A DNA stretch of 64,000 bases, taken from the sequence record PP358550; one strand, given 5' to 3'. Position numbers and translations under genes: made by a program. The notes under the pieces were generated by a model. It searched no databases, was not told the origin of the DNA, and saw only the letters and a program-made list of their open reading frames with translations. Position 1 is the stretch's first letter, and the number at the start of each line of letters is the position of its first letter. The DNA is from Escherichia phage FL04. This document shows positions 6,413-18,258 of the stretch, one piece after another.

Positions 6413-6973
6413 ATGGTACAGAAAACGTATAAATTGTATCCGGCTAAGTCTTCAAATGATGCTGTTTTTGAACGAGGTCGTTATTACACTTTCCGTAGTG
6501 CAGAAACAGCCGCAGAATTTATCAAACGATGTCCGCAACATAATAAGTTCTTGTATGACGTGCTTTGTAACGGCTTTAAAGTTCTCACTGTTGATGCGAT
6601 GGGGCGTGTGTATCTGGTAGAAACTCATGGGTATGAAGGTGCATCTGTTCTGATTGCTGCAAACGAGCGCAAATACTTTAAACGCATCACTAAAAAGCAG
6701 TTTGAAGAAATGAAACCAGTTAAGAAAGAAGAATCTCTGGAAGATCTGATTAACTTGTTTGGTAAAGTTCGCTCTATCTCCTTTGCGATTGAAGATGACA
6801 TTACCGACAATAAAATCTTTATCAAGAACGCGGAAGACCTGAAAGAGTTCCTTATTGAAAATAGATCTCGACTGGAAACCTTTCTTGAAAGTGAAATTAT
6901 TCGACATGATACCTACGCTAAATTCAGCGCCGAGAAAGTGGAAGAACTGAAAGAGATTAAAAAGTCACTTTAA
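6413..6973 (+). CDS. hypothetical protein, multi-copy domain family (domain plus helical C-terminal tail)
   Basis: GAGGATTATATT-ATG start; contains NERKYFKRI motif. Confidence 0.6.
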   Translation: MVQKTYKLYPAKSSNDAVFERGRYYTFRSAETAAEFIKRCPQHNKFLYDVLCNGFKVLTVDAMGRVYLVETHGYEGASVLIAANERKYFKRITKKQFEEMKPVKKEESLEDLINLFGKVRSISFAIEDDITDNKIFIKNAEDLKEFLIENRSRLETFLESEIIRHDTYAKFSAEKVEELKEIKKSL

Positions 6974-6976
6974 CGC

Positions 6977-7005
6977 TTGACATGATGAAACGGGAGTAGT
7001 AAGAT
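6977..7005 (+). promoter_or_regulatory. sigma70-type promoter with GGGAGTA/TACTCCC dyad
   Basis: TTGACA 6977-6982, spacer 17, TAAGAT 7000-7005; palindrome 6992-7011. Confidence 0.6.
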
Positions 7006-7036
7006 ACTCCCATCTAAACAACGAGAGGATTATATT

Positions 7037-8215
7037 ATGGCTAAATTCTTTGAAGGTCATTACTATGCATTCCGTGAAGGCGGAAAAGATGAGTTTCTAG
7101 ACTTTTCTCGCTATTCAATTATTCTGACCGATGCTTCGCGCCGTGGTCATATTCGGGTTGCTGAAATCGTAGAAAAGGGCTTTAAAGTATTAGAAAAAGA
7201 TGACCACGGTCATGTTATTACTATTGAAGCTGGAGATGTAGTTTATTCCGCTAATGATATTGTTGATTATTGGGCTACTATGATTATGCACAATGAGCGT
7301 AAATACTTTAAACGCATCTCAAAAGAGGCATACGAAGCGATGAACAAGAAAGAGGATGCAATGCCGACTTACTTTGAAAAAGGTAAATGTTATTCGTTTA
7401 CCCCAGAAGGTTTGCAAGAATTTAAGCGATTCTGGGGAGAGCATGATCCAGATCACAAAGAAGCTATGAAACTTGTTGATTTTGTCGAATATGGCTTTTT
7501 AGTTGAAGAAGAATTGCACGGATCAGCTACCATGATCACCGCGAAAGGTGAAACTGTTAAGGCAGATCGTTTTTGTGATCAATGGAATTGCTTGTTTGAC
7601 GGTAGCGAATTTGAATACTTCGCGGAAATCACGAAACAACAATTTCATTCTATGCAAGCGGATGGTCAGAGATTTAAAGTAGGTGAACGCTACAAGCCAA
7701 ATCAGCATAATTTGCCATATTGGTTTACCGCTGAAACTGTATCAAGTCATGTTGTTGAAATTGTTCAAAAGCTGGGACAAGGATTTAAGGTGACTAAAGT
7801 AGATGATTATGGAAGTGTTGACGCGGTTGAAATTGATGGTGTAGAATATACACCGAAATCATTCGGGCTTTGCTGGTATCACCTGATCAGCAATGATGAA
7901 CGTTATAACTTTGTTGAACTGCCATCTGAACCGGAAGAAGCACTAGAAGATCATGATCATCTGTCTGAACTGGTTAAGCTGTTTGGTGATCTGCCGGATG
8001 GTGTAGGCGTGGCGGTAATGGGTGAAGGTGCTGTTATTCGAAACCTGAAAGACTTTAAAAAGTTCTTGATTGACATGCTGCCTAAACTTGATGATAATCT
8101 CGATACAGATATTCAGAATCGCAAAGAAATTGTTAAAGAGACTGAAAAAGAGATTGAAGAGATTCGAGCAATTCGCCAGAAGGTGAAAGCAGTAAAGAAA
8201 AAAGTTAGTGCTTGA
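7037..8215 (+). CDS. hypothetical protein, multi-copy domain family (three tandem domains plus C-terminal tail)
   Basis: 392 aa; internal repeats with HNERKYFKRI / EYFAEITKQQF / ERYNFVEL motifs. Confidence 0.65.
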   Translation: MAKFFEGHYYAFREGGKDEFLDFSRYSIILTDASRRGHIRVAEIVEKGFKVLEKDDHGHVITIEAGDVVYSANDIVDYWATMIMHNERKYFKRISKEAYEAMNKKEDAMPTYFEKGKCYSFTPEGLQEFKRFWGEHDPDHKEAMKLVDFVEYGFLVEEELHGSATMITAKGETVKADRFCDQWNCLFDGSEFEYFAEITKQQFHSMQADGQRFKVGERYKPNQHNLPYWFTAETVSSHVVEIVQKLGQGFKVTKVDDYGSVDAVEIDGVEYTPKSFGLCWYHLISNDERYNFVELPSEPEEALEDHDHLSELVKLFGDLPDGVGVAVMGEGAVIRNLKDFKKFLIDMLPKLDDNLDTDIQNRKEIVKETEKEIEEIRAIRQKVKAVKKKVSA

Positions 8216-12580: not shown

Positions 12581-12590
12581 GGTGATTGCT

Positions 12591-13079
12591 ATGAAATGGG
12601 AATTGGGTAAGATGTACACTCTTGATGGTGATGAGAAGAAAGCAGAATTTACCAAATCTGAACTGTCAATCAACCGTCAAGTTGCTGAGTTTCTTGATGG
12701 ACGTCCTTTTACAGTCGAGGTTATGAGTAATGAGGGTCATGTTCTTGAAATCTCGTTAAGTGATGGTAAATGTATTTCTGTTCGAGACACTCCAATTGGT
12801 GCGCACGGTGCATGGTTTTGGGCTGGTGAACGTCGATTCTTTAAAGAAGTTAAAGAACCAGATCTAACTTTAGAACGTCTGGGTCTGCTTATGGAAGCCT
12901 ACGACATTCAGTTAATCGATAAGACGGGGTTACAACATAGTATTGCCAAAATTACTACCCTAGAAGGTATTAAGAGCGTTCTAAATGGTATGCCTAGCCG
13001 GATTGGTGCTATCCGCGAATACAAGCAAACGCGAGACCGTATGATCCAATTAGAATCACGTATCAAAAATGAGAGATAA
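12591..13079 (+). CDS. hypothetical protein, multi-copy domain family (domain plus helical tail)
   Basis: MKWELGKMYT...WFWAGERRFFKEV; first of four tandem family genes. Confidence 0.6.
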   Translation: MKWELGKMYTLDGDEKKAEFTKSELSINRQVAEFLDGRPFTVEVMSNEGHVLEISLSDGKCISVRDTPIGAHGAWFWAGERRFFKEVKEPDLTLERLGLLMEAYDIQLIDKTGLQHSIAKITTLEGIKSVLNGMPSRIGAIREYKQTRDRMIQLESRIKNER

Positions 13080-13083
13080 TATT

Positions 13084-13569
13084 ATGAAATGGGAAGAAGG
13101 TAAGACCTATGCGTTGGTTGGCGAATACGAAAAGCGTATTTTGCGTGATTGTTGGAGTTACGAACAAAGACCTAATATTGATGGTATGTTTACATATCTA
13201 GATAAACCATTTACTGTCGCTACGGTAGACCGTTGGGGTAATGTGCGTTCAATCTATAATCACGAAGGGGATTATATTAGTTCTATCGATATTGGTGATA
13301 ATATATGGTTTTCCGATGGTGACCGAGCGTGCTTCAAAGAAGTTTTATTACCTGGTCATGAATATGATCTAATAGACCTTCTCAAATTGGCGATGGATAA
13401 TTATAAAATTCGCTTTGAATGCAAATCACATGCGGCTATCGGTGCTAACGCCTTGCGTCATATCTCCAGTTTTGAAGAGTTGAAAGATTTTCTTGACAAA
13501 ATGCCGGAAAGAGTGCAAGCTATACAGGAAGCCGAGAAAGCATTAAACGAACTTGATAAAATCGGTTAA
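13084..13569 (+). CDS. hypothetical protein, multi-copy domain family
   Basis: MKWEEGKTY...DRACFKEV; tandem paralog. Confidence 0.6.
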   Translation: MKWEEGKTYALVGEYEKRILRDCWSYEQRPNIDGMFTYLDKPFTVATVDRWGNVRSIYNHEGDYISSIDIGDNIWFSDGDRACFKEVLLPGHEYDLIDLLKLAMDNYKIRFECKSHAAIGANALRHISSFEELKDFLDKMPERVQAIQEAEKALNELDKIG

Positions 13570-13581
13570 GGGGAATATATT

Positions 13582-14415
13582 ATGAAATGGGAAATTGGTA
13601 AAACTTACACCTGGAAAGATGAAAACGCTAAAACTGAGTTTATTACTAACGGAGAAGGTGTTCTTTCTCCACTTAACAGCGATATTAGTGCAGCTATTGG
13701 TGACAAGCCATTTACCATCATCGAGATCGAGGGTAACGGTTGGATTGATGCAATAGAGCTAGACGGTGTTTATCATACGGCGAAAACTGCTACAGGAAAA
13801 GACATTTGGACTGCAACATATTTCTTTAGTCCATTCGATAGAAAATTCTTTCGTGAAGTTGAAGAAGTTCCTCCTAAATGGGAAGTTGGTAAAACTTATA
13901 CTTGGAAAGATGAAGACGCAAAAGTGATGTTTTCTAGTATTGGTCATATTACCAATCGTAAAATTGCTGAGTGGATAGGAGATGATACTTTTACGGTATC
14001 TTCCGTTGATTCTGTTGGCATCGTTACTATGATCGACGTCAATAATGAGAGTGCTTGCGGAACATTTAATCCTCATTCAGCGGGTGTTGATGATGTTGAT
14101 GCTGTGTGGTTTGTTGAGCGTGAACGAAAATTCTTTCGTGAAGTTGAAGCAGTGAAAGAACCAGAAGAAAAGGTGAACGATGATTCTAAGATCGTTGGAC
14201 AGTTGAAACGTCTGTTTAGTAGTCGTTACGGCCTGACAATGGTTAAATTTGGCGAAGCAAATGAAGGTAAAACCTTTGAACGTTTCGATGATTTCATCGC
14301 AGCACTTGACAAGATGGACGAAATAATGCAAGATCGCCAGAAGATTAAAGACCTTCAAGAAGACATTAAACGTCGTGAAGTTGAATTTTTGATTGGTAAA
14401 GAGCGAGGATGGTAA
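13582..14415 (+). CDS. hypothetical protein, multi-copy domain family (two tandem domains plus tail)
   Basis: Two internal copies: KWE(I/V)GKTYTWKDE...RKFFREVE. Confidence 0.65.
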   Translation: MKWEIGKTYTWKDENAKTEFITNGEGVLSPLNSDISAAIGDKPFTIIEIEGNGWIDAIELDGVYHTAKTATGKDIWTATYFFSPFDRKFFREVEEVPPKWEVGKTYTWKDEDAKVMFSSIGHITNRKIAEWIGDDTFTVSSVDSVGIVTMIDVNNESACGTFNPHSAGVDDVDAVWFVERERKFFREVEAVKEPEEKVNDDSKIVGQLKRLFSSRYGLTMVKFGEANEGKTFERFDDFIAALDKMDEIMQDRQKIKDLQEDIKRREVEFLIGKERGW

Positions 14416-14416
14416 T

Positions 14417-14896
14417 ATGTTTGTTGTTGGTATGACCTATCAGTGGAAAAACGAGCGAGCGCGGAAAGTCTTTGCAACCAGTGTTGCAAATGATGCAATA
14501 GCAGACTTTATCGGTGACCGTACATTTAAAGTTATCGCTTTTGAAAAAATTGCGTCAGATATCGAATATGTTTCTGCGATTGAAATTGATGGAAAAACAT
14601 ACACCTGTCGAGATGTTGATGATGTACGGGAATACGCGCACAACTGGTTTTTGCAATCAGAAGAACGTTATTTTAAAGTGGTGTCGTCAGAACTGACTAC
14701 TGATGCAATGTTGGAACAATTCTTCAATAACTACGAAGTTTCTGTACGTCGCTATGGCGAAGAAGAAGTGTTTAAAATCGATGATTACAATCAGTTTAAA
14801 CGAGTATTCGCCACTAAGTTGCAGCGTGACTTTGAACGTGACCAACGGATCAAGGAACTGGAAGAAGAACTAGAAAGATTAAAGGCTGAGAAATGA
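14417..14896 (+). CDS. hypothetical protein, multi-copy domain family
   Basis: ATG 14417 after GAGGATGG; EERYFKVV motif; coiled-coil tail. Confidence 0.55.
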   Translation: MFVVGMTYQWKNERARKVFATSVANDAIADFIGDRTFKVIAFEKIASDIEYVSAIEIDGKTYTCRDVDDVREYAHNWFLQSEERYFKVVSSELTTDAMLEQFFNNYEVSVRRYGEEEVFKIDDYNQFKRVFATKLQRDFERDQRIKELEEELERLKAEK

Positions 14897-15162
14897 TCGA
14901 GATATACGGCATACCGAAAGAGGCTTATCATTGTTATGGTTGTATTAGTGCAATGAAGCTACTGGATGACCTGGGTATTCCGTATACACTTAAACCAGTA
15001 TTCAAGCAGGTCGGGGTTGACATTATTCCCGACCGTGATATGATTGAAGAACTGGCGTGGAGGCTGAACTCAAAGAGCCTCCGATTTGTATACCCCCAGA
15101 TATTCATTGACAACGAGCACATTGGAGGCTATAAAGAACTGAGGGCGATTTATGATTATTGA
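14893..15162 (+). CDS. nrdH: glutaredoxin-like protein
   Basis: CYGC redox motif, PQIF..GGY glutaredoxin signature; position after nrdG. Confidence 0.75.
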   Translation: MIEIYGIPKEAYHCYGCISAMKLLDDLGIPYTLKPVFKQVGVDIIPDRDMIEELAWRLNSKSLRFVYPQIFIDNEHIGGYKELRAIYDY

Positions 15163-15310
15163 GAATTTAGTTTCGGTATTCATTATTGCTTTATTTGCTA
15201 TAATGGCTTTACCGTTTAAGAAGTGTAAACACTGTAACGGAACAGGATTGCGTGGTGATGGGTGTTGCGCTCATTGTCACGGATCTGGTAAAGTAAGTAT
15301 CATTAAGTAA
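15152..15310 (+). CDS. small membrane-anchored protein with two CxxCxGxG zinc-finger motifs
   Basis: Not in ORF track (52 aa); GAGGG RBS 6 nt upstream; N-terminal hydrophobic helix then CKHCNGTG...CAHCHGSG. Confidence 0.4.
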   Translation: MIIENLVSVFIIALFAIMALPFKKCKHCNGTGLRGDGCCAHCHGSGKVSIIK

Positions 15311-15331
15311 TTCTTGAGTGAGGAATATATT

Positions 15332-15619
15332 ATGTTAGTACACAATGCAATCGCACACATGGTTTACTCTCGATTTGGGTGCATGGAAGAAATCAATATT
15401 ACCGACGCGGATTTAGATCTGATGCAAGTCGAAGGTCAGACATATCTGAAAAATAACGGCGTGAATATCGGTAAAGCGCGTGTGCGTGAATTGTTGGTTG
15501 AATATATTCTCTCTGAATTTGGCATTAGTGCTTTCGGTGTGAAAGAAATTGCACCTAAGCGCGAAATTTCTGATAAAATGATCAAGAAATGCCAGAAAGC
15601 ACGACGTAAGGGTTTCTAA
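15332..15619 (+). CDS. hypothetical protein
   Basis: ATG 15332 after GAGGAATATATT. Confidence 0.5.
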   Translation: MLVHNAIAHMVYSRFGCMEEINITDADLDLMQVEGQTYLKNNGVNIGKARVRELLVEYILSEFGISAFGVKEIAPKREISDKMIKKCQKARRKGF

Positions 15620-17088
15620 TGAAGATTGAAACATTAATCGCATTGCCAGCGGCGGGGAAAACTGATGCTATACTTTCCCACGTCCTAGAGACAAAAGAAA
15701 AAGCGGTTATTGCTTCGCCATCTCGTGTTTTAAGTGAACAATCTTACAATAAGTTTAAAAGAATGGGCGGTCGTGCTGTCTTGATTGATAGCACAAGACT
15801 AAGAAGCCTTAAGACAGTGCAAGCGTCGATAATGCAATCAGTTAAAGATGGTGCTGATGTGATATTCATTACACACACCGCGTTATCTAATATGGAACGT
15901 TCAAAAATGTTTGGTGAATATGCCCTTTACATTGATGAAGTTCCTCAACTGGTTGAATTTAATGAGTATCCGTTTAAGTCTAATCTTGAACTTATCACGA
16001 AGCATTGCGAACCAATCGCCGACGAATCGGAATGCCTACAGAACTTAGTTCTAAAAGACTCTGAGAAGTCCGCTATCAAAGAAAAGATAGAAAGTGCAAA
16101 GGATGGTACTGATATGATCGATTCTTCTCTTAGAGGGCTTTATGAGGCGTTATTAGAGAAGAAAATCAACGTTATGGTAAAACATAACGAAGGACACCGG
16201 AAGAATGGGTCGAAAATTGTTTTCTTGAACGATAACAAACACGGTACGTGGGGAGACTTTAAAAAGGTTACGATAGCATGTGCAAATCTCTTTGATACAT
16301 ATAGCGGGAAGTATCTACGATACTATGCAAATTGCGATTTTGTTCCGAGTGCGCTAGAATCCAGACTATATTTCAAAGAGTATAAAAATACAGATAGAGT
16401 TAATATCATCCTTATGACGGACTCCGAACGATGGTCGCGTCACCAGTCAGAAACAAACAATACCTTTGAACGTCTTGTTGATATGGTTAAAAATGAATGT
16501 GGTGATGACTTCATTTATACCGTGAATCGGGACCGTGAAGCGTGCACAAATGGTATTGGTGAGCGGATACCTTACGGGTCTTATGGTCTTAACTCTTACA
16601 TTCATCATAAAAATGTTGCTGTGATGTTCAGCTTTAACCCTCAACGATGGGAGATTGATATTTTAAAAGGTCTTGCTAATAGTTGTGATCTCCCAACAAA
16701 TGAGTTTTTGAAAGCGCGTCATGTGTCTGATTATCTGGAACCAGCATTTCAATTATGTTTGCGTTGTAACTTGAGAGACAACGAGAGCAAGGAGAATGTT
16801 AATCTATATGTTCCTGATTGGGCGTTGGTAGATTATCTAAAAACGTTTCTGCCTAATGCCAATGTAATAACAGATCGGATGATTTCGCTAGAATGTGGTG
16901 AGCGTAAAGGGCGAAAATCATTTAAAAAGATGTTCGATTTTAACGAGCAAGAGAATGCAAGATTTAACGGATTTAAGTACCGCATGAAGAAAAAAGGAAA
17001 AACTCTTGATCCGTCTGACGGTGAATCTGTAGAGATGGTTAGAGTGTGGATAACTAAGCAAAGAAAGTATAATGGTAATGGGGAATAG
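15619..17088 (+). CDS. P-loop NTPase of unknown function (possibly helicase-like)
   Basis: 489 aa; N-terminal Walker A-like ALPAAGKT and Walker B-like ALYIDEV; no confident T4 counterpart recalled. Confidence 0.65.
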   Translation: MKIETLIALPAAGKTDAILSHVLETKEKAVIASPSRVLSEQSYNKFKRMGGRAVLIDSTRLRSLKTVQASIMQSVKDGADVIFITHTALSNMERSKMFGEYALYIDEVPQLVEFNEYPFKSNLELITKHCEPIADESECLQNLVLKDSEKSAIKEKIESAKDGTDMIDSSLRGLYEALLEKKINVMVKHNEGHRKNGSKIVFLNDNKHGTWGDFKKVTIACANLFDTYSGKYLRYYANCDFVPSALESRLYFKEYKNTDRVNIILMTDSERWSRHQSETNNTFERLVDMVKNECGDDFIYTVNRDREACTNGIGERIPYGSYGLNSYIHHKNVAVMFSFNPQRWEIDILKGLANSCDLPTNEFLKARHVSDYLEPAFQLCLRCNLRDNESKENVNLYVPDWALVDYLKTFLPNANVITDRMISLECGERKGRKSFKKMFDFNEQENARFNGFKYRMKKKGKTLDPSDGESVEMVRVWITKQRKYNGNGE

Positions 17089-17128
17089 CCCGAAAGGGTT
17101 ATTTCCTAAATAATAGCGAGGGTGCGAA

Positions 17129-17662
17129 GTGTCTGATTATGTAAACAATAAAGAGCTTTACGAAGAAATTTGCCGTTGGAAACAACGAATTGCGGCAGAA
17201 GGTCGACAAGTGCCAATGAGCGATCAAATCGGCCTGGCAATTATGCAAATCTCTAAAAATCTATCACGGCGTTTTAACTTTTCTGGTTATAGTCAAACAT
17301 GGCGCGAAGAAATGATCGACGATGGAATCGAAGCGGCGGTCAAGGGTTTGATTAATTTTGACGAGACAAAGTATAAAAATCCTCATGCTTACATCACGCA
17401 AGCGTGCTTTAATGCTTTTGTACAGCGCATTAAAAAAGAGAGAACAGCGACAGCCGCAAAATACAAATATTTTGTGCATCATGTATATGACGAACGCGAC
17501 GCTGATATGTGCCAGATTGCTGATGAGGCATTCATACAGGACATTTACGATAAAATCAACAACTACGAGGAATCGGTCAATAAACCGAAAGCGCCAAAGG
17601 TTGAAGATGTATTGACCGAGGAATTGCCTAGCTTGGACCAATTTTATGAGATTGAAAATTAA
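17129..17662 (+). CDS. 55: late-transcription sigma factor gp55
   Basis: GTG start; translation closely matches T4 gp55 (YVNNKEL..., [50 protein letters not shown]). Confidence 0.9.
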
Positions 17663-17879
17663 CATTTCCCGTTTGCTGGAAGAAGCAGAGTTTGAAACTG
17701 ACCTTGTGCCGTATTTCGCCAAATTATTTTTGAGAGATTGCGGCGTTCCGGTGATTATCGATCCGTGCAATATCAAATCACCGGATCTTGAGGTCTTGAC
17801 GGGTACAATCTCACATAGCTATAATGTATCAGAAGATGAATTTTCTTTAATCATCGACTATATCCCAGAAGGAAAATAA
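17646..17879 (+). CDS. hypothetical protein
   Basis: ORF overlapping end of gene 55. Confidence 0.45.
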
Positions 17880-18168: not shown

Positions 18169-18258
18169 TGGCTTTATAAGGGAGACTCTGAAAGGGGTTT
18201 CCTTTTTTATTTTTCTGTGATATAGTGAGAGCATCGAAAACGAAGAGAGGAAGAGACT

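What the first reader, a model, noticed from the sequence alone, without database searches (positions are those of the whole stretch)
15619..17088. 489-aa P-loop NTPase of unknown function between nrdH and gene 55
The protein has an N-terminal Walker A-like motif (ALPAAGKT) and a Walker B-like hhhDE (ALYIDEV) but I cannot match it to any T4 replication or repair ATPase; Dda, gp41, gp44 and gp46 are all accounted for elsewhere in the window. It sits next to a tiny membrane-anchored double-CxxCxGxG zinc-finger ORF (15152-15310). A large orphan ATPase in an accessory slot is a candidate for anti-defence or a novel replication accessory function.
Basis: inference. Interest (0 to 1): 0.5.

Follow-up and report, generated by a model that had tools for sequence, protein, structure and literature searches.

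The report
Uncharacterised XPD/DinG-like phage helicase
The 489-residue protein is a real, conserved and apparently active superfamily-2 helicase whose predicted fold is closest to the XPD/DinG DNA helicases but without their iron-sulfur domain; RB49-type and many other non-T-even T4-like phages carry it as an extra, unstudied helicase that T4 itself lacks.

Summary
ORF 15619-17088 (+) encodes 489 aa with the quoted Walker A and Walker B strings. The window is an RB49-like Krischvirus and the gene is RB49p044, annotated "hypothetical".

It is not an orphan. It matches phrog_2467 (unknown function) over its full length and has full-length homologs in 243 phage records. It belongs to a family of about 1,370 clusters. 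T4-type phages lack it.

The gene keeps its place upstream of gene 55 and usually overlaps the stop codon of gene 55.2. T4 gp55.2 inhibits host topoisomerase I.

Most likely it is an early-expressed DNA helicase or translocase that assists phage replication, recombination or R-loop handling. Polarity, substrate and role are inferred. Nothing supports an anti-defence role. Interest is moderate-low.

The parts
15619..17088 (+). Complete gene for the 489-aa superfamily-2 helicase (ortholog of RB49p044 / NP_891615.1; phrog_2467)
   Evidence: ORF; 99.6% identical to the RB49 protein; phrog_2467 E 1.1e-174; AlphaFold model pLDDT 88.4, pTM 0.77
15640..15666 (+). Motif I / Walker A, ALPAAGKTD (residues 8-16). 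Only 9 residues precede the P-loop, so there is no room for a Q motif
   Evidence: P10, G13, K14 and T15 invariant in 36 T4-like-clade sequences; K14 invariant in 99 family members; coordinates
15706..15744 (+). Motif Ia-like, VIASPSRVLSEQS (residues 30-42)
   Evidence: S33, L38 and S42 invariant; aligns to DEAD-box motif Ia (APTReLa.Q) in the PDB profile hits
15856..15885 (+). Motif Ib-like, DVIFITHTAL (residues 80-89)
   Evidence: V81, F83, T85 and L89 invariant; strand 81-85 plus helix 86-90 in the model
15922..15945 (+). Motif II / Walker B, ALYIDEVP (residues 102-109), a DExx box of the form DEVP
   Evidence: D106 and E107 invariant in 99 family members
15946..16263 (+). Insertion of about 106 aa in RecA domain 1, between motifs II and III (residues 110-215). 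It has outgoing and returning beta strands and a helical tip, and it sits at the topological position of the XPD/DinG Arch domain
   Evidence: Secondary structure; insertion length 88-128 aa (median 107) in all 99 family members; XPD/DinG hits align 311-348 residues against about 250 for generic SF2 cores. Equivalence to the Arch domain is inferred, because residue-level superposition could not be inspected
16264..16287 (+). Motif III-like, KVTIACAN (residues 216-223), where the chain returns to RecA domain 1
   Evidence: T218 invariant and N223 nearly invariant; strand 216-221
16390..16878 (+). RecA domain 2 (about residues 258-420). It carries motif IV-like FIYTVNRDR (298-306), motif V-like YGSYGLNSY (319-327), NP..W (332-344), motif VI-like FQLCLRCNLR (377-386) and LYVPD (396-400)
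   Evidence: Y300, N303, R306, G323, N325, N340, W344, F377, Q378, R382, R386, V398 and D400 invariant in the clade; G323, N325, Q378, R382 and R386 invariant in 99 family members; domain limits approximate,
16879..17085 (+). Basic, mostly helical C-terminal tail (residues 421-489; pI 9.8; invariant W477). It is specific to the T4-like clade and its nearer relatives
   Evidence: pI and charge; helices 443-458 and 468-485 with a low-confidence linker at 426-431; most distant relatives match only profile positions 1 to about 430
15314..15619 (+). Upstream gene 55.2 homolog (DUF7570). Its TAA stop overlaps the helicase ATG (TAATG), so the two are probably co-transcribed and translationally coupled
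   Evidence: Pfam DUF7570 E 4.8e-28; RB49 annotation gp55.2; sequence; a 55.2-like ORF lies directly upstream in at least 18 of 29 related loci. T4 gp55.2 inhibits E. coli topoisomerase I (PMC4396842)
17079..17108 (+). 13-bp RNA hairpin with a GAAA loop spanning the helicase stop codon (TAG 17086-17088), with no U tract after it. Possibly a transcript-stabilising or processing element, or a weak terminator, ahead of gene 55
   Evidence: strand folding: -20.1 kcal/mol, z -4.16, 0 of 200 shuffles as stable. Function not tested
15017..15044 (+). Best sigma-70-like promoter match upstream of the ZnF-55.2-helicase block (TTGACA, 16 nt, TATGAT, with TG extension). A candidate early promoter
   Evidence: 11 of 12 match. 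The scan as a whole is not enriched over shuffles (23 sites against 18.2 +/- 4.9), so this is weak evidence

Best explanation
The gene encodes an active, probably monomeric superfamily-2 nucleic-acid motor built on the XPD/Rad3/DinG plan. It has two RecA-like domains, and a domain of about 106 residues is inserted into the first one between motifs II and III, where XPD has its Arch domain. It lacks the iron-sulfur domain and the Q motif.

Proposed mechanism:
- ATP, or another NTP given that no Q motif reads the base, binds between the Walker A and B motifs (K14, D106, E107) and the motif VI residues of domain 2 (Q378, R382, R386).
- Cycles of hydrolysis open and close the two domains and move the protein along a single strand held by motifs Ia, Ib, IV and V.
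- The inserted domain helps to hold or split the duplex.

By analogy with its closest structural relatives, the most likely substrate is DNA and the most likely direction is 5' to 3'.

The gene lies in the early-region block nrdH-55.2-helicase-55-47-46 and is usually translationally coupled to gene 55.2, whose T4 homolog inhibits host topoisomerase I. I therefore propose that it is an auxiliary helicase of phage DNA metabolism. It would unwind or clear forks, D-loops or R-loops, or bound proteins, during replication, recombination and replication-transcription encounters. It acts in addition to gp41, Dda and UvsW in the T4-like lineages that kept it.

Shown here: gene, conservation, motif set, fold class, synteny. 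Inferred: DNA substrate, polarity, early expression, physiological role.
For: - Real and conserved: phrog_2467 E 1.1e-174; 54 full-length homologs; 243 phage records; about 1,372 clusters at E <= 1e-3.
- Catalytic residues intact: K14, D106, E107, G323, N325, Q378, R382 and R386 invariant in 99 sequences that are 17-43% identical to the query. The fuller motif set is invariant within the T4-like clade.
- The insertion between motifs II and III is present at 88-128 aa in every family member.
- Context: fixed position in 29 loci from several T4-like genera. The start overlaps the upstream gene in 27 of 29 loci, and that gene is 55.2-like in at least 18. [quoted passage not shown] The recombination nuclease genes 47 and 46 lie just downstream.
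- From established knowledge: CasDinG, a relative without a functional FeS cluster, is a 5'-3' DNA and RNA/DNA helicase (PMC10450177, abstract). E. coli DinG helps replication across transcription units (PMC2770101, abstract).
Against: - No sequence-level link to XPD/DinG. No Pfam DEAD_2, Helicase_C_2 or HBB match. hhalign against E. coli DinG gives probability 0.4%. A 99-sequence profile reaches only the generic SF2 N-terminal motifs of DEAD-box, PriA, XPB, reverse gyrase, Mfd and UvrB proteins.
- Global TM-scores to XPD/DinG are only 0.40-0.49.
- In XPD the FeS domain contributes to strand separation. Its absence means the unwinding mechanism cannot simply be copied from XPD.
- I could not inspect the superposition, so equating the insertion with the Arch domain rests on topology and aligned length.
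- Gene order is broadly conserved in T4-like genomes, and overlapping start and stop codons are common there, so neighbourhood is weak evidence of function.
- T4 keeps 55.2 without this helicase, so the two are not obligate partners.
- There are no expression data. The promoter scan is not enriched over shuffles.
Confidence: 0.5

Rival explanations
1. Counter-defence protein. The motor displaces or evades a host immune complex on phage DNA, such as a restriction, CRISPR or helicase-nuclease sensor, or it acts as a decoy for such sensors.
For: - The gene is accessory: T4-type phages lack it.
- It lies in an early region rich in small genes of unknown function.
- Bacterial relatives (27-28% identical) sit in mobile islands beside a resolvase and a bSEFIR-type or DUF4062 protein, so the family occurs in conflict-associated neighbourhoods.
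Against: - No meaningful PADLOC match for the phage protein or its relatives.
- It is stably conserved at one position across phages of Aeromonas, Erwinia, Proteus and Enterobacteriaceae at 35-42% identity, with a complete invariant motif set. Counter-defence genes are usually patchy and fast-evolving.
- bSEFIR has its own model in PADLOC, and the island pattern was seen only twice, so the adjacency may be coincidental.
- Carriage does not track DNA modification. Erwinia phage Cronus has both this gene and an alpha-glucosyltransferase.
Confidence: 0.12
2. Duplex-DNA translocase or remodeller rather than a strand-separating helicase. Like Snf2, HsdR or Mfd motors, it tracks along double-stranded DNA to strip RNA polymerase, nucleoid proteins or other roadblocks, or to alter topology together with gp55.2 and host topoisomerase I.
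For: - Several long-form relatives pass the Pfam ResIII threshold.
- Profile hits include Mfd, RecG and the reverse-gyrase helicase domain.
- There is no FeS wedge domain.
- The gene is coupled to a DNA-binding topoisomerase I inhibitor gene.
Against: - These hits cover only the generic RecA cores (about 240-255 residues).
- XPD/DinG-type helicases rank clearly higher with two independent methods.
- No Snf2-specific or HsdR-specific insertions or sequence signatures were found.
Confidence: 0.18
3. RNA helicase or chaperone of the DEAD-box kind, acting on phage or host transcripts. It lies downstream of an array of goF-like genes that are annotated as mRNA metabolism modulators.
For: - Pfam DEAD matches at 27.4 bits, just above the 26-bit cut-off.
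- The best PDB profile hits by sequence are the DEAD-box proteins Mss116 and DDX52.
- goF-like paralogs lie at 12582-14896.
Against: - The DEAD match covers only residues 11-130.
- There is no Q motif, no D-E-A-D, no S-A-T, no HRxGRxGR and no Helicase_C match.
- DEAD-box structures align with only one domain (135-165 residues), whereas XPD/DinG align over 310-350.
- DEAD-box proteins have no large insertion between motifs II and III.
Confidence: 0.1

Closest known systems
XPD/Rad3 helicases (archaeal XPD 3crv, 2vsf and 2vl7; yeast Rad3)
   Different: No 4Fe-4S domain: the Ia-to-II segment is only about 63 aa and no Cys column is conserved. No Q motif. About 100 residues shorter. No Pfam DEAD_2, HBB or Helicase_C_2 signature. 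About 10-16% identity in structural alignments.
Bacterial DinG (F. magna 9kqh, E. coli 6fwr, S. aureus 8zef)
   Different: hhalign of the family profile against E. coli DinG gives probability 0.4%. No FeS domain and no N-terminal exonuclease-like domain. The phage protein is 489 aa, compared with about 700-900 aa.
CasDinG of type IV CRISPR systems (8e2w, 7xf0, 8s35_M)
   Different: CasDinG keeps a vestigial FeS domain and an N-terminal accessory domain and works with a CRISPR effector. The phage protein has neither domain and no CRISPR context.
T4 UvsW (2oca), the SF2 helicase of T4-like phages
   Same: Phage-encoded SF2 motor involved in recombination and R-loop unwinding (established knowledge). 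UvsW is conserved in T4 and the five other T4-like genomes compared by Nolan et al., RB49 included.
DEAD-box RNA helicases (Pfam PF00270)
   Same: The only curated sequence family the protein touches (27.4 bits against a cut-off of 26, residues 11-130). Motifs I, Ia and II are alignable.
   Different: Lacks the Q, DEAD, SAT and HRxGRxGR motifs and Helicase_C. Has a 106-aa insertion that DEAD-box proteins lack.

Membership tests
Superfamily 2 helicases/translocases | Walker A GK[TS] and Walker B DExx in an N-terminal RecA-like domain | tested here: met
   PAAGKT (10-15) and IDEVP (105-109). K14, D106 and E107 are invariant in 99 relatives
Superfamily 2 helicases/translocases | Second RecA-like domain with motif V and motif VI (Q/R residues reaching the ATP site) | tested here: met
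Superfamily 2 helicases/translocases | Nucleic-acid-dependent NTP hydrolysis coupled to translocation or unwinding | not testable with these tools
   Needs purified protein
XPD/Rad3/DinG family | Overall architecture closest to family members | tested here: met
XPD/Rad3/DinG family | Arch domain inserted in RecA domain 1 between motifs II and III | tested here: inconclusive
   An insertion of 88-128 aa is present at that position in all 99 relatives. It is a mix of strands and helices. XPD/DinG align 60-100 more residues than generic SF2 cores do. The residue-level superposition could not be inspected, and Pfam HBB (PF06777) does not match
XPD/Rad3/DinG family | 4Fe-4S cluster domain with four conserved Cys between motifs Ia and II | tested here: not met
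   The Ia-to-II segment has a median of 63 aa (52-77). Between Ia and II no column reaches 30% Cys; across the whole 99-sequence alignment the only such column is position 10, inside the P-loop. Only C130 and C380 are invariant in the T4-like clade
XPD/Rad3/DinG family | Sequence-profile membership (Pfam DEAD_2 PF06733, Helicase_C_2 PF13307) | tested here: not met
   No such Pfam hits at E <= 1 for the query or at E <= 0.01 for 15 relatives. hhalign against E. coli DinG gives probability 0.4%. No XPD or DinG chain appears among the 60 listed of 211 PDB profile hits
XPD/Rad3/DinG family | Q motif upstream of motif I | tested here: not met
   Only 9 residues precede the P-loop (sequence)
XPD/Rad3/DinG family | 5'-3' polarity on single-stranded DNA | not testable with these tools
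   Needs unwinding assays with 5'- and 3'-tailed substrates
DEAD-box RNA helicases | Pfam DEAD plus Helicase_C, with Q, D-E-A-D, S-A-T and HRxGRxGR motifs | tested here: not met
   DEAD scores 27.4 bits against a cut-off of 26, over residues 11-130 only. There is no Helicase_C match. Motif II is DEVP, there is no SAT, and motif VI is QLCLRCNLR
T4 replication/repair ATPases (gp41, Dda, UvsW, gp44, gp46) | Orthology to a T4 gene | tested here: not met
   tblastn against 50,697 phage records returns 243 hits, and no T4-type phage appears in the sampled listing or in the organism and identity breakdown. Hundreds of T4-type records are in the collection. gp46, gp41 and Dda are encoded elsewhere in the window. 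UvsW matches one domain only
Known anti-phage defence proteins (PADLOC-DB models only; no anti-defence library was available) | Match to a curated model | tested here: not met
   PADLOC gives only a 13.6-bit, E 0.0088 partial hit to an unrelated DRT model. There are no hits for relatives

The most novel reading that the evidence does not exclude
[quoted passage not shown] The pair would then either set up or dismantle R-loop-primed replication origins, or work with the topoisomerase in the way helicase plus type IA topoisomerase pairs do (reverse gyrase, RecQ-Topo III). If so, the wider family of about 1,370 clusters would be a new, FeS-independent branch of 5'-3' SF2 helicases specialised for mobile elements.
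Probability: 0.08. Interest if true: 0.7.

Novelty: new variant of a known kind. Interest (0 to 1): 0.33.

Why it matters
T4-like phages are the reference system for replication and recombination enzymology. Their helicase set is usually taken to be gp41, Dda and UvsW.

This gene shows that a large part of the T4-like radiation carries a fourth helicase that nobody has studied. The carriers include RB49, RB43, the Aeromonas phages and the Erwinia, Proteus and Klebsiella relatives. The protein has an XPD/DinG-type layout but no iron-sulfur domain.

Its small size and lack of a metal cluster would make it a tractable model for how this helicase class separates strands without the FeS wedge. Its family is large and almost entirely unannotated in phage and metagenome data, so a single biochemical characterisation would annotate more than a thousand protein clusters. 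Coupling to the topoisomerase I inhibitor gene gives a concrete, testable lead.

At present it is an improved annotation, not a new mechanism.

Tried and rejected
**No result or not informative**
- Sequence search of the PDB with the single protein and with the 36-sequence profile: no hits.
- NCBIfam: no hits.
- PADLOC on the query and on relatives: nothing meaningful.
- hhalign of the family profile against E. coli DinG: probability 0.4%.
- afdb50 fold library: not available.
- Literature: the only mention of this gene is the 2006 listing of a weak DEAD hit. Searches for phage-encoded DinG/XPD helicases and for Krischvirus helicases or anti-defence gave nothing on this family.

**Ideas rejected**
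- Domain fusions in the ~800-aa long-form relatives: Pfam finds nothing beyond DEAD and ResIII in the N-terminal half, so they give no functional clue.
- The 'DprA-like' label on the upstream gene in Aeromonas phages such as 44RR: neither Pfam nor NCBIfam supports it, so I did not use it as evidence for a recombination role.
- A link to unmodified cytosine DNA: Erwinia phage Cronus carries both the helicase and an alpha-glucosyltransferase.

**Bacterial and distant context**
- Two genome-contig scans returned nothing, one with a two-sequence alignment and one with a degenerate motif VI pattern. I could not establish how common the bacterial resolvase-helicase-TIR arrangement is.
- Neighbourhoods of distant relatives are heterogeneous: phage-like contigs, a CapR-repeat protein plus a methyltransferase, and mobile islands. 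They show no conserved partner.
Full report
**1. The observation**

The ORF listing finds an ATG-initiated ORF at 15619-17088 on the + strand, encoding 489 aa. Base composition is uniform with the surroundings.

The window is an RB49-like Krischvirus. Bases 14800-17700 are 98-99% identical to 58 phage records, RB49 among them. The protein is 99.6% identical to RB49p044 (NP_891615.1), annotated "hypothetical protein".

The 52-aa ORF at 15152-15310 has a hydrophobic N-terminus and two CxxCxGxG repeats.

It lies between that small ORF and the ATPase gene, and its TAA stop overlaps the ATPase ATG (TAATG).

**2. It is a conserved gene family, not an orphan**

- The protein matches phrog_2467 ("unknown function") from end to end (E 1.1e-174).
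- The word-indexed protein search returned 54 full-length homologs at 32-99% identity.
- tblastn against 50,697 phage records found it in 243. Fifty-eight are Krischvirus-like at >=95% identity and 185 are below 60%.
- The carriers include RB43-like phages and Aeromonas phages 44RR, 25, 31, Aeh1 and 65. They also include Erwinia phage Cronus, Proteus, Morganella, Serratia, Citrobacter, Cronobacter, Enterobacter and Klebsiella phages, and more distantly Agrobacterium jumbo phage Atu_ph07.
- In the records examined it is called hypothetical.
- T4-type phages are absent from the hits, although hundreds of them are in the collection.
- An exhaustive profile search of 1.84 billion cluster representatives found 1,372 clusters at E <= 1e-3 and 800 at E <= 1e-10. 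They fall into two size classes, about 480-550 aa and about 750-890 aa.
- The only paper that mentions the gene is Nolan et al. 2006 (PMC1524935). It lists RB49ORF044c among "novel ORFs" with a DEAD/DEAH Pfam match at E 0.069.

**3. What kind of protein it is**

Pfam gives only a marginal DEAD match (27.4 bits against a cut-off of 26, residues 11-130). The alignments are more informative.

In 36 sequences of the T4-like clade these positions are invariant or nearly so:

| Motif | Sequence | Residues |
|---|---|---|
| I | PAAGKT | 10-15 |
| Ia | ASxSRxLSxQS | 32-42 |
| Ib-like | FITHxAL | 83-89 |
| II | IDEVP | 105-109 |
| III-like | VTIACAN | 217-223 |
| IV-like | FIYTxNxxR | 298-306 |
| V-like | HGLNxY | 322-327 |
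| VI-like | FQLCxRxNxR | 377-386 |
| post-VI | VPD | 398-400 |

In 99 sequences spanning the wide family, 17-43% identical to the query, the invariant columns are K14, D106, E107, G323, N325, Q378, R382 and R386. These are the residues an SF2 motor needs to bind and hydrolyse ATP and to couple the two domains. The protein is therefore very probably an active enzyme.

An AlphaFold2 model built on the alignment is confident: mean pLDDT 88.4, pTM 0.77, and five concordant models.

- Foldseek agrees independently. Its 18 best PDB hits are all XPD, DinG or CasDinG (E 6e-11 to 1.6e-7), although global TM-scores are only 0.40-0.49.

The extra 60-100 aligned residues correspond in size to a 106-residue insertion between motif II and the motif III-like strand (residues 110-215). 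This insertion has an outgoing strand at 112-119, helices at 147-179 and a returning strand at 198-205. That is the position at which XPD-family helicases carry the Arch domain (established knowledge of the family). The insertion is present at 88-128 aa (median 107) in all 99 relatives, so it is a defining feature of this family. I could not view the superposition, so calling it Arch-like is an inference.

Several defining features of XPD/DinG are absent:

- **No FeS domain.** The Ia-to-II segment is only 52-77 aa (median 63). Across the wide family the only column with >=30% Cys is position 10, inside the P-loop. In the T4-like clade only C130 and C380 are invariant.
- **No Q motif.** The P-loop starts at residue 10.
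- **No sequence signature.** Neither the query nor 15 relatives match Pfam DEAD_2, HBB or Helicase_C_2. hhalign of the family profile against E. coli DinG gives probability 0.4%.
- **Only generic profile hits.** The 99-sequence profile reaches only the N-terminal SF2 motifs of DEAD-box proteins, PriA, XPB, reverse gyrase, Mfd, UvrB and RecG.

I therefore do not file the protein as a member of the XPD/DinG family. I describe it as a separate SF2 family with an XPD/DinG-like layout and no FeS domain. CasDinG is the nearest precedent. It lacks a functional cluster yet is a 5'-3' DNA and RNA/DNA helicase (PMC10450177).

The last 69 residues form a basic (pI 9.8), mostly helical tail with an invariant Trp477. 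Most distant relatives match only profile positions 1 to about 430. The tail is therefore specific to the T4-like clade and its nearer relatives, and it is a candidate for DNA or partner binding (inference).

**4. Genomic context**

In 29 loci retrieved from IMG/VR, the order nrdH ... (55.2) - helicase - 55 - a-gt.5 - a-gt.4 - 47 is kept. RB43-like genomes are the exception, because a known rearrangement puts gene 34 downstream. The annotated records for 44RR, Aeh1 and Cronus show the same placement directly upstream of gene 55.

The helicase start overlaps the end of the upstream ORF in 27 of 29 loci. That ORF is 55.2-like in at least 18 loci by iterative HMM search. tblastn places 55.2 directly upstream in three more.

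In 44RR-type Aeromonas phages the overlapping upstream gene is a 190-aa protein labelled "DprA-like". Pfam and NCBIfam do not support that label. The Zn-finger ORF is confined to Krischvirus among these loci.

T4 gp55.2 binds DNA, blocks relaxation by E. coli topoisomerase I and improves phage fitness (PMC4396842). T4 has 55.2 without the helicase, so the two are not obligate partners. Synteny and overlapping genes are the rule in T4-like genomes, so this context is suggestive only.

Upstream there is one good sigma-70-like site (15017-15044, 11 of 12 with a TG extension), but the scan is not enriched over shuffles. A 13-bp GAAA-loop hairpin spans the stop codon (-20.1 kcal/mol, z -4.2).

Distant relatives give no consistent partner:

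- A long form lies in a phage-like contig.
- A 498-aa form follows a protein with five CapR-homology repeats and an N6/N4 methyltransferase in a 146-kb contig.
- Two bacterial or metagenomic forms, 39% identical to each other, lie between a divergent resolvase and a bSEFIR-type or DUF4062 protein. One of them is next to an integrase.
- Two scans of species-representative bacterial genomes found nothing.

On the few contexts sampled, the family appears to belong to phages and other mobile elements.

**5. Most likely mechanism, and rivals**

The best-supported reading is an ATP-driven SF2 motor that moves along one nucleic-acid strand, with the inserted domain helping to hold or split the duplex. 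By analogy with its structural neighbours it would be a 5'-3' DNA helicase, possibly also active on RNA/DNA hybrids.

It sits in the early-region DNA-metabolism block, next to a topology modulator and upstream of the 47/46 recombination nuclease genes. It is therefore most plausibly an auxiliary helicase for replication, recombination or R-loop and roadblock clearance. T4-type phages lack it: no homolog was detected in them.

| Claim | My confidence |
|---|---|
| Active SF2 motor | ~0.9 |
| XPD/DinG-like layout | ~0.7 |
| 5'-3' DNA helicase | ~0.5 |
| The proposed physiological role | ~0.35 |

Rivals:

- **Duplex-DNA translocase or remodeller (0.18).** The second-tier hits, the ResIII matches in relatives and the missing wedge domain allow it.
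- **Counter-defence factor (0.12).** The gene is accessory and sits in an early variable region. But it is stably conserved, shows no link to DNA modification (Cronus has an alpha-glucosyltransferase as well) and has no defence-database signal.
- **DEAD-box-like RNA helicase (0.10).** This rests only on a marginal Pfam hit, and motifs and fold contradict it.

**6. Novelty and verdict**

The gene is real, and the helicase nature hinted at in 2006 is now firm. The specific finding is a large, unannotated, mobile-element-borne SF2 family with an XPD/DinG-like layout and no FeS domain. That makes it a new variant of a known kind.

It gives non-T-even T4-like phages a fourth helicase that has never been studied. 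No feature found here is mechanistically surprising, and the role is inferred. Interest is moderate-low (0.33).

The most novel reading still open is a functional helicase-gp55.2-topoisomerase I module. I rate it at about 8% probability.

Noticed in passing
window 12582-14896 (+): Four consecutive genes (12582-13079, 13069-13569, 13582-14415, 14393-14896) carry five copies of one N-terminal module; the 277-aa protein has it twice. The module starts with the motif KWE.GK.Y. The two proteins scanned hit phrog_5347, phrog_622 and phrog_3710, and one also hits the 'goF mRNA metabolism modulator' PHROGs. This is a tandem paralog array of unknown function just upstream of nrdH.
   Followed up: partly
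window 15152-15310 (+): A 52-aa ORF with a hydrophobic N-terminal segment and two CxxCxGxG zinc-knuckle repeats (phrog_3931; weak DnaJ_CXXCXGXG and GRXCR1/2 Pfam hits). Among 29 related loci it is detected only in Krischvirus, so it is not a conserved partner of the helicase.
   Followed up: partly
window 17079-17108 (+): A very stable 13-bp hairpin with a GAAA tetraloop encloses the helicase stop codon (-20.1 kcal/mol, z -4.16). No U tract follows it. It may be an RNA stability or processing element between the helicase gene and gene 55.
   Followed up: partly
window 18169-18258, compared with L001 (RB49) 6641-7195: RB49 has an HNH endonuclease gene (RB49p040, with an AP2 DNA-binding domain) between a-gt.4 and gene 47. 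In the window the two genes are only about 90 nt apart, with a terminator-like hairpin at 18178-18205. This looks like a presence/absence polymorphism of a homing endonuclease among near-identical Krischvirus genomes.
   Followed up: no
L046 1529-5202 and L041 5213-10234: Bacterial or metagenomic relatives of the helicase (P0064 and P0065, 39% identical to each other, about 27% to the phage protein) share one arrangement. A divergent resolvase lies upstream, and about 550-650 nt downstream there is a bSEFIR-type TIR protein (PADLOC bSEFIR, E 1e-60) or a DUF4062 protein. One locus lies next to a phage-type integrase. This may be a mobile island or a helicase-plus-effector pair, but it was seen only twice.
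   Followed up: partly
L039 4610-8497: In a 146-kb phage-like contig, a 498-aa family member directly follows a 495-aa protein made of five CapR-homology repeats (Pfam PF21817, E 1.5e-61) and an N6/N4 DNA methyltransferase. The arrangement is repeated in a second contig (L040).
   Followed up: no
L002 3441-4004 (Aeromonas phage 44RR ORF049c) and L018-L020, L036: The gene overlapping the helicase start in 44RR-type phages is annotated 'DprA-like DNA recombination-mediator protein' in the 44RR RefSeq record and in several related RefSeq records. It matches no Pfam or NCBIfam model. It does contain GxGSRETP and GGAxGAD strings that, by my reading only, resemble DprA/SLOG-type Rossmann motifs. The label should be treated as unverified.
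   Followed up: partly
Literature on Krischvirus (PMC13390438): [quoted passage not shown] TB34 has canonical cytosine and SAP has glucosylated methyl-deoxycytidines. No hmC synthase or glucosyltransferase gene has been detected in the genus, and the pathway is unknown. Nothing links this to the helicase, but the nrdD-to-rIIA region that the paper aligned includes this window's block of genes.
   Followed up: no
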